Below, piece after piece: positions 792-33,314 of a stretch of DNA of 64,000 nucleotides. The position numbers and the translations under genes were made by a program. The stretch is from Escherichia coli (GTDB lineage: Bacteria > Pseudomonadota > Gammaproteobacteria > Enterobacterales > Enterobacteriaceae). Location of the stretch: assembly GCF_050320075.1 (NCBI RefSeq), contig NZ_CP190018.1; one strand, given 5' to 3'. Within the stretch, counting starts at the first letter, position 1; every line of letters begins with the position of its first letter. The notes beneath the pieces were generated by a model. It did not search any database. It was not told the origin of the DNA and was given only the letters and a program-made list of their open reading frames with translations.

Positions 792-1607
792 ATGAGCAGA
801 CATGCAACAGATTGGGCCTGGGAGACAGATCCAGGTAGCTCATCATTAAAGCTCATACTGCTCTCGATGGCTGACAGAGCCGATGAATATAACCTCTGCT
901 ACCCCAGCATAGAACGCCTCGTTAAAGACACTTGCCTGAATAAAAAAACCGTGCAGGCCGGGCTTATATCGCTCATGAAAATGGGGCTTATTTCAGATAC
1001 CGGAGAGAGAAAGGGAGCGACAAAAAGAGTGCGGGTTTTCTCTCTTAATATAACCAAAAACGGGAACATTAAAGGCAACCGGGAAGGGGGTAATGAACCC
1101 GAAATCGGTAATGTTACCGAAAACGGGAATATACCCAAAAACGGGATGTTGAATGATCCCAAAAACGGGATGTTGAATGATCCCAAAAACGGGATCCAGA
1201 ACCAGTCATATAACCAGTCATTTAACCAAGAGAGGGAGAGCAGGACAAAAAGCGGGGATTCTGTGCCTCATGACCCCGGAGCAAACAACGCCGTGATGAA
1301 TAACTTTGTTCCTCCTGGTGGGCCAGGGCAATTAGGCAAATTTGTCATGCATGAACAATGGCAGCCATCAGATGACTTTCTTCGGAAAAGCTCATTGCAG
1401 GGGATCTACCTGGACAGTCTGCCAACGGCACAGGAACTTGCAGAGTTCAGAATTTACTGGATGGCTGAGGGTAAGGCATACCATCAGGCACAGTGGGAGC
1501 AGAAGCTGGCAAGGCGGCTGCAGATTAGCAGACAGAAGCAATCAACATTACCTGATAACAACGTTCCGCACTGGAACAGCCCTGAAGCATGGGAGGATTT
1601 CTTGTGA
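792..1607 (+). CDS. Replication initiator, lambda O-like (N-terminal winged-helix DNA-binding domain, iterons inside the gene)
   Basis: 271 aa; GGAG RBS; repeated peptide PKNGMLND encoded by tandem DNA repeats; immediately followed by the P-like gene. Confidence 0.7.
   Translation: MSRHATDWAWETDPGSSSLKLILLSMADRADEYNLCYPSIERLVKDTCLNKKTVQAGLISLMKMGLISDTGERKGATKRVRVFSLNITKNGNIKGNREGGNEPEIGNVTENGNIPKNGMLNDPKNGMLNDPKNGIQNQSYNQSFNQERESRTKSGDSVPHDPGANNAVMNNFVPPGGPGQLGKFVMHEQWQPSDDFLRKSSLQGIYLDSLPTAQELAEFRIYWMAEGKAYHQAQWEQKLARRLQISRQKQSTLPDNNVPHWNSPEAWEDFL
1054..1200. repeat. Iteron array (probable phage origin): two perfect 24-bp units CCCAAAAACGGGATGTTGAATGAT (1134-1157, 1158-1181), a third truncated unit (1182-1200), and degenerate copies at 1054-1068 and 1116-1130
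   Basis: Direct tandem repeats read in the sequence, followed by the short direct repeat ACCAGTCATATAACCAGTCATTTAACC. Confidence 0.7.
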
Positions 1608-6114: not shown

Positions 6115-6710
6115 TGATGCCTGCTGAACCTAAAACCTATAAACGCAAATCAACGCAATTTAAGCCACTAACCGCAATGCAGGAGGCTTATTGCCAGTCA
6201 TACATCAAAACGCCTGAAAACCAGACTCAGGCAGCGATTAACGCAGGATTCTCCCCAAATACAGCGGCAGTTAAAGCCAGTGTCATGATGCGCGATGAAC
6301 GCATTCAAAAACGGATTGCCGAGTTGATGGAGGAGCGCAACAAACGAATGCGCGTCAGTGCCGATTACGTTCTCATGCGCCTGGTGGAGATCGACCAGAT
6401 GGACGTGATTGATATCCTCAATGACGATGGGAGCCTTAAGCCAATCCGCGAGTGGCCGAAAATCTGGCGCACTACGCTTAGTGGCTTTGATCTGTCATCG
6501 ACCATCATGAACATGAACGAGGATTCGATAGAGACAATTCTCAAAAAAATTAAATGGCCTGACAAGGTGAAGAACCTCGAACTGATTGGTAAGCACGTCG
6601 ACGTCAATGCATTCAAAGAACGCCTGGATGTTAATGTGAATGTGACAATTGCTGATCGCATAGCGGCAGCCAGGAAGCGACTCAAAGAACGTCAGGATGG
6701 TAATCAGTGA
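6114..6710 (+). CDS. Terminase small subunit (start trimmed from track ORF 6036; true start 6105-6117 uncertain)
   Basis: Segment LTAMQEAYCQSYIKTPENQTQAAINAGFSPNTAAVKASVMMRDERIQKRIAEL resembles the terminase small-subunit DNA-binding domain; directly upstream of the large subunit. Confidence 0.6.
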   Translation: MMPAEPKTYKRKSTQFKPLTAMQEAYCQSYIKTPENQTQAAINAGFSPNTAAVKASVMMRDERIQKRIAELMEERNKRMRVSADYVLMRLVEIDQMDVIDILNDDGSLKPIREWPKIWRTTLSGFDLSSTIMNMNEDSIETILKKIKWPDKVKNLELIGKHVDVNAFKERLDVNVNVTIADRIAAARKRLKERQDGNQ

Positions 6711-8182: not shown

Positions 8183-8232
8183 TCCGTTAGCGGGGATAAT
8201 GACGGAGATATCCTCTGGTGAGGATAAAACAA

Positions 8233-8259
8233 AGCCAGCTCATCGGCTGGCTGTTTGTG
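8233..8259. terminator. Bidirectional terminator hairpin
   Basis: AGCCAGC-TCATCG-GCTGGCT flanked by T-rich runs on both strands; ends + strand terminase transcription and the minus-strand gene 8273..8644. Confidence 0.6.
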
Positions 8260-8268
8260 ACATGTCAC
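8257..8268. repeat. Perfect 12-bp palindrome GTGACATGTCAC (copy 2)
   Basis: Read directly; between the stop of minus gene 8273..8644 and the terminator hairpin. Confidence 0.9.
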
Positions 8269-8272
8269 GGTG

Positions 8273-8644
8273 TTATTGCTCGCTTAACTTCTGCTTCAGC
8301 AAGTAACCTTCAAGCATCCAGATTTTGTTTACAGCATTCTGCCGGGCAATCTTCCGACCAATTTCCGCATCAAAGTTTTCCGGGCTTGCACAGGCGCTCT
8401 CTCCGGTGACGGTGAAGCCGTTGCGCAGCACCAGAACGCAGAACGTCAGCAGAGAAAGTGATTCGTGCGGCTGGTAGTTTACCTCTCCGCCAGTATGTTT
8501 CGCTTTTATGGCTACGCCAAAGACACCATCTTCTGCTGTGAAATATGCCTCCTGAGCAATAATGCTCTCGATATGGTCTGGCGTAACGCGCGGCGCGGCT
8601 AAACCTTTAGCCTGAATTTCAGATTCAATGTCTTTGTCACTCAT
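8273..8644 (-). CDS. Hypothetical protein, opposite strand (moron-like)
   Basis: 123 aa ORF on the minus strand between terminase and the tRNA, with its own terminator; family not recognised. Confidence 0.5.
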   Translation of the reverse strand: MSDKDIESEIQAKGLAAPRVTPDHIESIIAQEAYFTAEDGVFGVAIKAKHTGGEVNYQPHESLSLLTFCVLVLRNGFTVTGESACASPENFDAEIGRKIARQNAVNKIWMLEGYLLKQKLSEQ

Positions 8645-8761
8645 AGTCTAATCTCACCTTAAAAAAATGCCCGGCGAACCGGGCGAACTGGAAGCAATGA
8701 GTTATGCCTTCCGTGGCTGTACTGGTTTACAGCATGAAGTCATCGCAATGGCGTCCTGCTG

Positions 8762-8803
8762 TAAAAAGGGCGGTGATAGTCCTTCAAGGGAAACCATCAC
8801 CGC
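8762..8803 (-). terminator. Possible terminator downstream of the phage tRNA
   Basis: Imperfect hairpin GGCGGTGAT...ATCACCGCC followed on the minus strand by CTTTTTA. Confidence 0.4.
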
Positions 8804-8847
8804 CAAGCACCTGGAACTTCTGGCATCACGGTCCTTAGGCGTGATTC

Positions 8848-8924
8848 TGGCGTGGCATGCAGGATTCGAACCTGCGACCAACCGCTTAGAAGGCGGTTGC
8901 TCTGTCCAACTGAGCTAATGCCAC
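8848..8924 (-). tRNA. tRNA-Arg (anticodon UCU, reads AGA), phage-borne
   Basis: Hand-folded cloverleaf: 7-bp acceptor stem GTGGCAT/ATGCCAC, D-stem GCTC/GAGC, anticodon stem ACCGC/GCGGT with loop CUUCUAA, T-arm GCAGG-TTCGAAT-CCTGC, encoded 3' CCA. Confidence 0.9.
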
Positions 8925-9247
8925 AACGCTGAGAGCACTTAGCCTGTTAAGTGCGCCACACTTTGTCGCAGCTCCATAAATGCTCTCATCGTTGTACCCT
9001 CGTCTCTTCCGAGGCGTCACACCGAATCGCCGGGATGGTGAATCCCCGTGCGCGGAATAAAACCGCTCGACTTGCACATTCCGGCTACCTGGTTCGTTTG
9101 CCCGAGCAAGGGAGGGTGCCCCTTAAACGTATCCAGACCGCTATCGGCGCATGTGCCATACGCCGTACTGCTCAAAATAAAAGCTCACTCCACCTGTTCA
9201 ATTTAACGACAAGCCAGTCAGGTTAATAACCGGAATGAACCATTTAC

Positions 9248-9262
9248 TTACCTGAAAGGTAA
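9248..9262. promoter_or_regulatory. Operator-like palindrome TTACCTGAAAGGTAA upstream of the portal operon
   Basis: Perfect copy of the motif, followed by TAATAA. Confidence 0.6.
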
Positions 9263-9352
9263 TAATTCGTGCGTTAAATGTCAACTACCTACGATAAATA
9301 AATCATATGTGGTTAAATTGGTAATAATTTAATTGCGTACGGAGTCATTGAT

Positions 9353-9559
9353 ATGTGCATGGGTAGCTCACCATCAGTGCCTGCAACACCAGAAGTTCAG
9401 GCAGCACCACAGGAGCAGGATGCCGCCGTTGTTGATGCCCGCGACGAAGAAACACGTCGCCGTCGCGCTGCTGCTGGTCGTAGTTCTACGCTGCTTACCG
9501 GTTCTCAGGGCGACACATCAACTGCTAATACCAGCGGTAAAACGCTGCTTGGTCAGTAA
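9353..9559 (+). CDS. Small low-complexity protein (68 aa)
   Basis: GGAG RBS; its translation initiation region (CGGAGTCATTGA + ATG) is nearly identical to that of the portal gene. Confidence 0.45.
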   Translation: MCMGSSPSVPATPEVQAAPQEQDAAVVDARDEETRRRRAAAGRSSTLLTGSQGDTSTANTSGKTLLGQ

Positions 9560-9573
9560 CCGGAGTCATTGAA

Positions 9574-11253
9574 ATGGCGGAAACAACTAAAGAGCGATTG
9601 AGCAAACAGTTCGCACAACTTGAAAGCGAGCGTCAGTCGTTCGAGCCGCACTGGCGCGAGTTGAGTGATTACATCAACCCGCGTGGTTCCCGCTTTCTGA
9701 CTTCTGAGGCCAACCGTAACGATCGGCGCAATACACACATTATTGATTCGACCGGGACTATGGCGGCGCGCACTCTCGCCAGCGGCATGATGTCAGGCAT
9801 CACAAGCCCCGCGCGTCCGTGGTTTCGCCTGGCTACGCCAGATCCTGAAATGATGGATTATGGCCCTGTTAAGTTGTGGCTTGAGGCGGTGCAGAACCGC
9901 ATGAACGATATGTTCAATAAGTCGAATCTCTATCAGTCGCTGCCGCAGTTATACGGAAGCCTCGGCACATACAGCACCGGTGCAATGGCGGTACTGGAGG
10001 ATGATGAGGACATCATTCGCACAATGCCATTCCCGATAGGCAGTTACTACCTGGCTAACTCACCTCGTGGCAGTGTTGACACCTGTTTTCGCAAGTTCTC
10101 TATGACTGTTCGTCAGCTTGTTCAGGAGTTCGGGCTAAATAACGTCAGCGAATCCGTAAAAAGCATGTGGGAAAGCGGCATCTACGAGAAGTGGATTGAC
10201 GTGATGCATTCGGTTTACCCGAACATTGACCGCGATACATCGAAGCTGGATAGCAAGAACAAGCCATTCAAATCGGTTTATTACGAGGTTGGTGGCGATA
10301 ACGACAAGTTGTTGCGTGAGTCCGGATTCGATGAGTTTCCAATTATGGCTCCGCGCTGGGAAGTTAACGGTGAAGATGTTTATGGATCATCATGCCCGGG
10401 CATGCTGGCGCTTGGACCTGTTAAGGCATTGCAGCTTCTCCAGAAGCGCAAGTCGCAGTTGATTGATAAAGCCACCAATCCGCCGATGGTTGCTCCGACT
10501 TCCCTCAAGAATCAGCGCGCCTCCCTTCTTCCTGGCGACATCACGTATATCGATCAGATTACTGGTCAGGATGGCTTCAGGCCTGCTTATCTGGTTAACC
10601 CCAGTACAGCAGATTTGGTGGCAGACATTCAGGACACTCGTCAAATCATTAACAGCGCCTACTTTGTCGATCTGTTCATGATGTTGCAGAACATCAATAC
10701 CCGCTCGATGCCTGTTGAAGCGGTGATCGAAATGAAAGAAGAAAAACTTCTGATGTTGGGGCCGGTTCTGGAGCGTCTGAACGACGAATGTCTTAATCCT
10801 CTCATTGACCGCGCTTTCTCGATGATGGTGCGTAAAAACATGCTGCCGCCACCGCCTGACGCGATGGAAGGCATGCCCCTGAAGGTCGAATACATTTCCG
10901 TCATGGCTCAGGCGCAGAAGTCTATCGGCCTGTCCAGTCTGGCGTCCACGGTTAACTTCATTGGTCAACTTGCGCAAGCGAAACCAGAAGCTCTCGACAA
11001 ACTCAACGTTGATCAGGCGATCGATGCATTCGCTGATATGTCCGGAGTGTCTCCAACCGTCATTGTTCCGCAGGAACAGGTTGAGCAGGCTCGCCAGCAA
11101 CGGGCACAGCAGCAACAGCAGCAACAAATGATGGCGATGGGGATGGCGGCGGCACAGGGGGCCAAGACGCTAAGCGAAGCTAAAACTTCGGATCCGAGTG
11201 TTTTGTCAGCTATGGCGAATGCAGTTAGTGGTCAGGGTGGGCAATCACAATGA
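9574..11253 (+). CDS. Portal protein
   Basis: 559 aa, immediately after the terminase region; size and position typical. Confidence 0.7.
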   Translation: MAETTKERLSKQFAQLESERQSFEPHWRELSDYINPRGSRFLTSEANRNDRRNTHIIDSTGTMAARTLASGMMSGITSPARPWFRLATPDPEMMDYGPVKLWLEAVQNRMNDMFNKSNLYQSLPQLYGSLGTYSTGAMAVLEDDEDIIRTMPFPIGSYYLANSPRGSVDTCFRKFSMTVRQLVQEFGLNNVSESVKSMWESGIYEKWIDVMHSVYPNIDRDTSKLDSKNKPFKSVYYEVGGDNDKLLRESGFDEFPIMAPRWEVNGEDVYGSSCPGMLALGPVKALQLLQKRKSQLIDKATNPPMVAPTSLKNQRASLLPGDITYIDQITGQDGFRPAYLVNPSTADLVADIQDTRQIINSAYFVDLFMMLQNINTRSMPVEAVIEMKEEKLLMLGPVLERLNDECLNPLIDRAFSMMVRKNMLPPPPDAMEGMPLKVEYISVMAQAQKSIGLSSLASTVNFIGQLAQAKPEALDKLNVDQAIDAFADMSGVSPTVIVPQEQVEQARQQRAQQQQQQQMMAMGMAAAQGAKTLSEAKTSDPSVLSAMANAVSGQGGQSQ

Positions 11254-33164: not shown

Positions 33165-33314
33165 CATGGCATTTTCATGGCACTGATTTCCTGTGACGGT
33201 ATATAAAACGGTACGAGGAAAATTTGGTTTTGGAAAAGTGTTATCACTCAATTGGTTATGGTGTCCGTAAATAATTGAGTGGGAATGATTTTGATCCCTG
33301 CACTATGAATGAAC

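What the first reader, a model, noticed from the sequence alone, without database searches (positions are those of the whole stretch)
9339..9577. Near-identical translation initiation regions for the small gene at 9353 and the portal gene
CGGAGTCATTGA followed by ATG occurs at 9340-9355 and 9561-9576, suggesting a local duplication or a shared translational control element.
Basis: seen in the sequence. Interest (0 to 1): 0.2.

Follow-up and report, generated by a model that had tools for sequence, protein, structure and literature searches.

The report
Two look-alike ribosome-binding sites in prophage
Two neighbouring genes of an epsilon15/phiV10-type E. coli prophage (a small conserved gene and the portal gene) start with the same 12-base ribosome-binding stretch, but only one sub-lineage of these phages shows this, the match decays there, and nothing points to a special control element, so it is ordinary.

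Summary
CGGAGTCATTGA lies at 9340-9351 and 9561-9572. Each copy is followed by one base and then an ATG, giving 15 of 16 identical bases in the same register.

Both ATGs are real starts in the head operon of a Uetakevirus (epsilon15/phiV10-like) prophage:
- 9353 opens the 68-aa epsilon15 gp3 homologue.
- 9574 opens the portal.

Each site is a GGAG Shine-Dalgarno sequence, an 8-nt spacer and an ATG.

The repeat is only mildly unusual. About 1.5 exact 12-mer pairs within 300 nt are expected per 64 kb. It is the longest in-register match among 2278 start-region pairs in the window, but unrelated pairs reach 9 and 10.

I found 34 distinct site pairs in about 160 related loci. The shared spacer occurs only in two sister clades, phiV10-type and Tyrion-type. 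Epsilon15, SPN1S and the Klebsiella, Hafnia, Morganella, Proteus and Providencia relatives share at most the GGAG. In the Tyrion clade the portal copy drifts while the gp3 copy stays fixed.

Nothing else supports a special element:
- no similarity beyond the 16 nt;
- no further copies;
- no complementary partner;
- no conserved RNA structure;
- no Rfam match.

Best reading: two ordinary ribosome-binding sites whose extra identity is a lineage-specific accident, from chance or a tiny copying event. One parallel A/T difference between the clades stays unexplained.

The parts
9340..9351 (+). Repeat copy 1: Shine-Dalgarno GGAG (9341-9344) plus spacer of the gp3-homologue start region. The ATG follows at 9353 after one more base (T, 9352).
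   Evidence: The Tyrion record annotates a ribosome-binding site at the homologous place.
9353..9559 (+). 68-aa gene, homologue of epsilon15 gp3 (phrog_831, function unknown). N-terminal Met-Cys is invariant and the arginine run and the C-terminal KTLLGQ are nearly so. The model predicts one helix (residues 24-49) and is otherwise low confidence.
   Evidence: Variable columns by codon position are 10/5/53 of 68, which indicates purifying selection. AlphaFold mean pLDDT is 63.5.
9561..9572 (+). Repeat copy 2: Shine-Dalgarno GGAG (9562-9565) plus spacer of the portal start region. It lies in the 14-nt gap after the gp3 stop codon TAA (9557-9559). The ATG follows at 9574 after one more base (A, 9573).
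   Evidence: The Tyrion record annotates a ribosome-binding site at the homologous place.
9574..11253 (+). Portal / head-to-tail connector gene (559 aa).
   Evidence: PF12236 at E 5.6e-187. phrog_332. Annotated as portal in RefSeq.
9247..9339 (+). Conserved non-coding leader or promoter-operator region just upstream of copy 1. It contains the palindrome TTACCTGAAAGGTAA (9248-9262). The epsilon15 record annotates the homologous site as a repressor-binding site. It also contains a second GGTAATAATT (9320-9329) inside the palindrome TTAAATT-GGTAAT-AATTTAA (9313-9332).
   Evidence: Nearly invariant from 9300 to 9335 across 9 phages. Folds as a hairpin.

Best explanation
These are two ordinary Shine-Dalgarno translation initiation regions. 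They belong to consecutive genes at the start of the head-morphogenesis operon of an epsilon15/phiV10-like (Uetakevirus) prophage of E. coli.

Each site has a GGAG core, an 8-nt A/U-rich spacer and an ATG. The first serves the conserved 68-aa gp3 homologue and sits just downstream of a conserved operator/promoter region. The second lies in the 14-nt gap after the gp3 stop codon. The portal is therefore probably translated both by fresh initiation and by ribosomes that have just finished gp3. This last step is inferred.

The extra 7-8 identical spacer bases are a historical accident in the common ancestor of the phiV10 and Tyrion clades. They arose by chance convergence or by a very short copying event between two sites 221 nt apart. 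They carry no function of their own and are not kept identical by selection.
For: Both starts are real:
- Portal: PF12236, E 5.6e-187.
- gp3 family: conserved across Enterobacterales, with variation concentrated at third codon positions.
- The Tyrion record annotates ribosome-binding sites at both places.

Distribution among relatives:
- Of 34 distinct site pairs from about 160 loci, only the phiV10-type and Tyrion-type share the spacer.
- These two types are sister clades on neighbour-joining trees of both gp3 and the portal 5' end.
- Epsilon15, SPN1S, PAT1 and the Klebsiella, Enterobacter BUCT554, Hafnia, Morganella, Proteus and Providencia types share at most GGAG.

Decay of the match:
- In the Tyrion clade the portal copy varies (GGGG or GAGG cores; C to A or T in the spacer), and the gp3 copy does not follow.
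- In the phiV10 clade the first base of the portal copy varies among C, A and T.

No sign of anything beyond two start regions:
- No similarity outside the 16 nt.
- No more copies than chance gives.
- No co-varying complementary sequence.
- Local folds are no more stable than shuffles, with z from -0.3 to +1.0.
- No Rfam family.
- Unrelated gene pairs in the same window reach in-register runs of 9-10.
Against: - The 12-nt run is the maximum of 2278 in-register pairs, and it falls on adjacent genes. Pure chance is somewhat strained.
- Position 12 is A in both copies in the phiV10 clade and T in both copies in the Tyrion clade. The two clades are about 15% diverged in this region. A parallel change is then roughly 20-fold less likely under independent drift than under copying or joint constraint. 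This is one event only.
- 'GGAGTC' also occurs in the portal sites of other lineages (L013, L167), and 'ATTG' occurs in epsilon15's gp3 site. The shared 12-mer therefore looks like a blend of both ancestries, which fits two-way homogenisation as well as chance.
Confidence: 0.78

Rival explanations
1. Concerted evolution. Short-patch copying keeps the two sites alike without any selected function. Possible mechanisms are transient strand misalignment between the two direct repeats during replication, or recombination promoted by the prophage's RecT-type recombinase.
For: - A parallel A/T difference sits at the 3' edge of the repeat in the two sister clades.
- The shared 12-mer looks like a blend of portal-type 'GGAGTC' and gp3-type 'ATTG'.
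- In the Tyrion clade GGGG appears ancestral for the portal copy, while Tyrion, L148 and L149 have GGAG, matching gp3.
- The prophage encodes RecT.
Against: - Most Tyrion-clade members carry 1-2 differences between the copies that have not been erased.
- The evidence rests on one or two events.
- The GGGG-to-GGAG change also simply improves the Shine-Dalgarno sequence.
- Twelve bases is very short for homology-dependent exchange.
Confidence: 0.13
2. Functional matched pair. The identical sequence is selected, either to give gp3 and the portal equal initiation rates (fixed stoichiometry) or as a shared binding site for a translational repressor or small RNA.
For: - The genes are adjacent, the register is identical, and the run is the longest in the window.
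- gp3 is always immediately upstream of the portal in every relative, so a functional link between the two proteins is plausible.
- The parallel change at position 12.
Against: - The match is absent from about 20 related lineages with the same gene pair.
- Identity is lost in most Tyrion-clade members.
- There is no third copy, no complementary partner at a homologous place and no conserved structure.
- Initiation rate also depends on the downstream codons and on coupling, and both differ between the two genes.
Confidence: 0.06
3. Remnant of a larger duplication or of a cassette insertion. On this reading gp3 was inserted together with a duplicated copy of the target ribosome-binding site.
For: The two repeats bracket gp3 exactly, from start region to start region, 221 nt apart.
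Against: - gp3 is present at this position in all relatives, including those without the repeat, out to Proteus, Providencia and a Marinobacterium locus.
- No similarity lies outside the 16 nt.
- No natural precise deletion of gp3 between the repeats was found in IMG/VR (0 matches).
- Among matches in 530 of 5426 complete E. coli genomes, every listed top hit was split in two pieces by gp3.
Confidence: 0.03

Closest known systems
Canonical Shine-Dalgarno translation initiation regions of phage late operons, as annotated in Enterobacter phage Tyrion NC_031077 (gp04 and gp05)
   Same: A GGAG core, an 8-nt spacer and an ATG, placed directly in front of conserved genes. The homologous positions are annotated as ribosome-binding sites in Tyrion.
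   Different: Nothing functional. The only peculiarity is that the spacers of two neighbouring sites are identical in this lineage.
Epsilon15 gp3-gp4 (portal) junction, Salmonella phage epsilon15 NC_004775
   Same: Same gene pair, the same 14-nt gap after the gp3 stop codon, the same conserved leader with annotated repressor, IHF and RNase III sites, and the same CGGAG cores.
   Different: Epsilon15's two spacers are unrelated: CTATTGCT upstream of gp3 and TAGGCAGAG upstream of the portal. The repeat is therefore not a family trait.
Translationally coupled gene pairs (termination-reinitiation across short intergenic gaps; general knowledge)
   Same: The Shine-Dalgarno sequence of the downstream gene lies 2-5 nt after the upstream stop codon. 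The 14-nt gap is constant in the phage records and most relatives (9-14 nt in others).
   Different: Coupling has not been shown here. The predicted pairing between the portal start region and gp3 codons 9421-9435 involves bases that are not conserved in Tyrion or epsilon15.
Shared translational operators, e.g. phage T4 RegA targets (from memory, not tested here)
   Same: A short sequence overlapping the start regions of more than one gene.
   Different: Such operators are conserved among relatives and recur at several genes. Here there are only two copies, the match is lineage-restricted, it is decaying, and no candidate binding factor is known.

Membership tests
Shine-Dalgarno translation initiation region | Purine-rich core complementary to the 3' end of 16S rRNA | tested here: met
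   GGAG at 9341-9344 and at 9562-9565.
Shine-Dalgarno translation initiation region | Core 5-10 nt upstream of a start codon | tested here: met
   An 8-nt spacer precedes ATG 9353 and ATG 9574.
Shine-Dalgarno translation initiation region | The start codon opens a genuine, conserved coding sequence | tested here: met
   The portal matches PF12236. In the gp3 family Met-Cys is invariant at the N-terminus, and variable columns by codon position are 10/5/53.
Shine-Dalgarno translation initiation region | Ribosome binding or initiation demonstrated experimentally | not testable with these tools
   Needs toeprinting or ribosome profiling.
Shared translational operator or cis-regulatory RNA element | Conserved in relatives that carry the same genes | tested here: not met
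   The shared spacer occurs in only 2 sister clades of about 22 lineages and decays in the Tyrion clade.
Shared translational operator or cis-regulatory RNA element | Recurs at regulated genes more often than chance | tested here: not met
   With up to 2 mismatches there are 5 matches in the window against 5.28 expected. Only these two precede starts.
Shared translational operator or cis-regulatory RNA element | Conserved or unusually stable RNA structure, or a described RNA family | tested here: not met
   Local folds give z from -0.3 to +1.0. The long-range pairing is not conserved. Rfam finds only the tRNA.
Shared translational operator or cis-regulatory RNA element | A cognate binding protein or antisense RNA | tested here: inconclusive
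   No complementary sequence lies at a homologous position in the window prophage and Tyrion. Protein binding cannot be tested.
Segmental duplication | Similarity extends beyond a short core, or the flanked genes are paralogous | tested here: not met
   No similarity in 30-50 nt flanks. The gp3 and portal N-termini are unrelated.
Uetakevirus (epsilon15-like) head module | Gene order terS, terL, ..., gp3, portal, Bbp19-like, protease/scaffold, GP7-type capsid, cement protein | tested here: met
   Pfam and PHROG hits. RefSeq annotation. gp3 is 100% identical to phiV10 and 88% to epsilon15.
Translationally coupled gene pair | Downstream start lies within a few nt of the upstream stop | tested here: met
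   A 14-nt gap. The Shine-Dalgarno core begins 2 nt after TAA.
Translationally coupled gene pair | Downstream translation depends on upstream translation | not testable with these tools
   Needs a gp3 nonsense mutant with portal expression measured.

The most novel reading that the evidence does not exclude
In the phiV10/Tyrion lineage the gp3 and portal start regions form a deliberately matched pair. On this reading they are kept alike either by selection for a fixed gp3:portal synthesis ratio or by recurrent short-patch copying between direct repeats 221 nt apart. The parallel A/T change at the repeat edge would be its footprint.
Probability: 0.07. Interest if true: 0.3.

Novelty: already known. 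Interest (0 to 1): 0.08.

Why it matters
It matters little. The result tidies up an annotation point: both ATGs (9353 and 9574) are well-supported starts with good ribosome-binding sites. It also shows that the repeat is not a regulatory motif worth searching for elsewhere.

Two modest points may be of use:
- The gp3 family is a small protein with invariant Met-Cys and a near-invariant arginine run. It sits immediately upstream of the portal across Enterobacterales prophages and has no known function.
- If the single parallel substitution reflects templated copying between very short direct repeats, this locus, with hundreds of sequenced copies, could serve as a natural test case.

Tried and rejected
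- **Antisense or anti-Shine-Dalgarno partner.** The complement TCAATGAC occurs once in the prophage, at 6418 inside terS. Tyrion's ACAATGAC occurs at three non-homologous places. Rejected.
- **Long-range pairing as a coupling switch.** The MFE fold of 9300-9640 pairs the portal start region with gp3 codons 9421-9435 (z -2.0). Those bases differ in Tyrion and epsilon15. Rejected as a conserved feature.
- **Local hairpins.** A weak 5-bp hairpin, GUCAU-UGAA-AUGGC, includes the portal AUG in the window and in Tyrion. Its stability is no better than shuffles, and epsilon15 lacks it.
- **Precise deletion of gp3 between the repeats.** There were 0 hits in IMG/VR. In 5426 complete E. coli genomes the listed top hits were all two-piece matches with gp3 in between.
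- **Promoter scan of 8200-9700.** No sigma-70-like site was found, so the transcription start upstream of gp3 remains unassigned.
- **Function of gp3.** There was no Pfam or NCBIfam hit. PDB gave only low-complexity matches. The AlphaFold model has low confidence (pLDDT 63.5, one helix), so no fold search was run.
- **Literature.** Nothing on gp3 or on these start regions was found in the held library.
- **Motif scan of IMG/VR.** The scan for ACGGAGTCATTGBNATG returned 32 contigs. Six carry gp3 (five give a full gp3-portal pair); the other 26 are unrelated chance matches.

Full report
**1. The observation**

The window reads ...TTGCGTA CGGAGTCATTGA T ATG TGC ATG GGT... at 9340-9355. It reads ...CAG TAA C CGGAGTCATTGA A ATG GCG GAA... 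at 9561-9576. The repeat finder reports the same pair: 16 nt, 94% identical, 221 nt apart. The coordinates and the description are right. A direct comparison of 30 nt upstream and 50 nt downstream of both copies shows no further similarity.

**2. What the two ATGs are**

The window is an E. coli chromosome segment. It is 100% identical over the query to NZ_CP123240.1. It carries a prophage that ends near window position 33165, next to yfgI.

The prophage head module reads as follows:
- terS, PF03592
- terL
- a Gp49-family gene and tRNA-Arg(UCU), both on the minus strand
- the 68-aa ORF at 9353-9559
- the portal at 9574-11253 (PF12236, E 5.6e-187)
- a Bbp19-like gene
- protease/scaffold
- GP7-type major capsid protein (PF20911)
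- cement protein

This is the epsilon15/phiV10 (Uetakevirus) layout.

The 68-aa protein is 100% identical to phiV10 p06 and 88% identical to epsilon15 gp3. It belongs to phrog_831, of unknown function.

It is a real gene:
- 146 cluster representatives were found across Enterobacterales.
- Met-Cys at the N-terminus is invariant, and the arginine run and the C-terminal KTLLGQ are nearly so.
- Among nine phages, variable columns fall 10/5/53 on codon positions 1/2/3.

Its structure model has low confidence (pLDDT 63.5) and shows a single helix. It has no Pfam, NCBIfam or PDB relative.

**3. Anatomy of the sites**

Each copy is a GGAG Shine-Dalgarno core, an 8-nt spacer and an ATG.

Copy 1 follows a non-coding block that is almost invariant among relatives (9300-9335). 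That block contains:
- a palindrome homologous to the site annotated as a repressor-binding site in the epsilon15 record (TTACCTGAAAGGTAA, 9248-9262);
- a second GGTAATAATT inside the palindrome TTAAATT-GGTAAT-AATTTAA (9313-9332).

gp3 is therefore the first gene of this operon.

Copy 2 lies in the 14-nt gap after the gp3 stop codon. That gap length is the same in every phage record examined. The arrangement is typical of termination-reinitiation coupling, but coupling is inferred here, not shown.

**4. Is it more than chance?**

As a bare repeat, no. First-order Markov simulations of the window give 1.46 exact 12-mer pairs within 300 nt on average. The window has two other unrelated pairs.

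As a match in register between start regions, it is mildly unusual. Among 2278 pairs of the 68 annotated starts it has the longest identical run (12). Unrelated pairs reach 10 and 9 because Shine-Dalgarno cores are shared. The 12-mer has no additional copies beyond chance, with 5 matches at up to 2 mismatches against 5.28 expected.

**5. Relatives**

I collected the gp3-portal junction from these sources:
- annotated phages;
- one genome per species (18 loci);
- IMG/VR (80 loci, plus 6 Tyrion-type loci);
- exact-protein look-ups of intermediate gp3 variants.

This gave 34 distinct site pairs.

| Lineage | gp3 site | Portal site | Note |
|---|---|---|---|
| phiV10-type, E. coli (about 83 loci) | CGGAGTCATTGA | CGGAGTCATTGA | First base of the portal copy varies among C, A and T |
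| Tyrion-type | ACGGAGTCATTGTT, fixed | ACGG[A/G]GT[C/A/T]ATTGTC, or a GAGG core | Portal copy drifts |
| epsilon15, SPN1S, PAT1 | CGGAGCTATTGCT | CGGAGTAGGCAGAG | Only the core is shared |
| Klebsiella, BUCT554, Pseudocitrobacter, Hafnia, Buttiauxella, Morganella, Proteus, Providencia, others | – | – | At most the core is shared |

Neighbour-joining trees of gp3 and of the first 600 nt of the portal both place the phiV10-type and the Tyrion-type as sisters. The shared spacer therefore arose once, in their common ancestor. It has since been eroding in the portal copy of the Tyrion clade.

**6. Tests of special mechanisms**

- There is no complementary partner at a homologous position in this prophage and Tyrion.
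- The MFE fold of 9300-9640 pairs the portal site with gp3 codons 9421-9435. Those bases are not conserved in Tyrion or epsilon15.
- Folds of 66-nt windows around all six sites (window, Tyrion, epsilon15) are no more stable than shuffles, with z from -0.3 to +1.0. That is expected of open start regions.
- Rfam finds only the tRNA.
- The repeats bracket gp3 exactly, so recombination between them would delete it. No such junction exists in IMG/VR. In complete E. coli genomes the listed top hits were all two-piece matches with gp3 in between. gp3 is therefore retained.

**7. What remains odd**

Position 12 of the repeat is A in both copies in the phiV10 clade and T in both copies in the Tyrion clade. 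The clades are about 15% diverged in this region (318 of 373 identical). A parallel identical change is then roughly 20 times less likely under independent drift than under copying or joint constraint. It is a single event, at the 3' edge of the repeat, in the loop of the weak portal hairpin.

'GGAGTC' is also seen in the portal sites of other lineages, and 'ATTG' in epsilon15's gp3 site. The shared 12-mer therefore looks like a blend of both ancestries. This leaves some room for short-patch copying between the repeats, though not for a selected regulatory element.

**8. Verdict**

The feature is a pair of ordinary ribosome-binding sites whose spacers happen to be identical in one sub-lineage. 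It is a known kind of thing and of low interest.

Noticed in passing
window 1054-1195 (and 1200-1228): There are iteron-like repeats. CCCAAAAACGGGATGTTGAATGAT occurs 2.6 times in tandem at 1134-1195. Further CC(A/G)AAAACGGGA copies lie at 1054 and about 1119. A 12-nt repeat, AACCAGTCATAT, occurs 2.4 times at 1200-1228. All lie inside the DnaT-like/O-like replication gene (792-1607), so this is probably the prophage replication origin.
   Followed up: partly
window 8848-8924 (-): A tRNA-Arg (anticodon UCU) lies inside the prophage, between the Gp49-family gene (8273-8644, minus strand) and gp3. The epsilon15 and Tyrion records annotate no tRNA at this place.
   Followed up: partly
window 9247-9339: The non-coding block upstream of gp3 is strongly conserved. 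It holds the palindrome TTACCTGAAAGGTAA; the epsilon15 record annotates the homologous site as a repressor-binding site. It also holds a second GGTAATAATT inside the palindrome TTAAATT-GGTAAT-AATTTAA. The consensus scan found no sigma-70-like promoter, so the promoter of the head operon is unassigned.
   Followed up: partly
window 9353-9559 (gp3 homologue): This small protein family has invariant N-terminal Met-Cys; its arginine run and C-terminal KTLLGQ are nearly invariant. It always sits immediately upstream of the portal, from E. coli to Proteus and Providencia and in a Marinobacterium locus. It has no known function or structure.
   Followed up: partly
window 9564-9578: A weak 5-bp hairpin, GUCAU-UGAA-AUGGC, encloses the portal start codon. 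The same stem occurs in Tyrion with loop UGUC and is absent in epsilon15. Its stability is not above shuffles.
   Followed up: yes
L020, L153, L154, L156 (Buttiauxella and Hafnia-type prophages), portal start region: The portal site reads GGGCTTATTGAATG or GGGATATTGAATG. It shares ATTGA-ATG with the phiV10-type portal site, although the gp3 site in those loci is unrelated. The history of the portal spacer is therefore ambiguous.
   Followed up: no
window 14339/14602 and 60774/61064: Two other exact 12-mer direct-repeat pairs lie within 300 nt of each other (CTGACTGGGAAT and CTGCGCGGCGCG). They show that such pairs occur by chance in this window.
   Followed up: no
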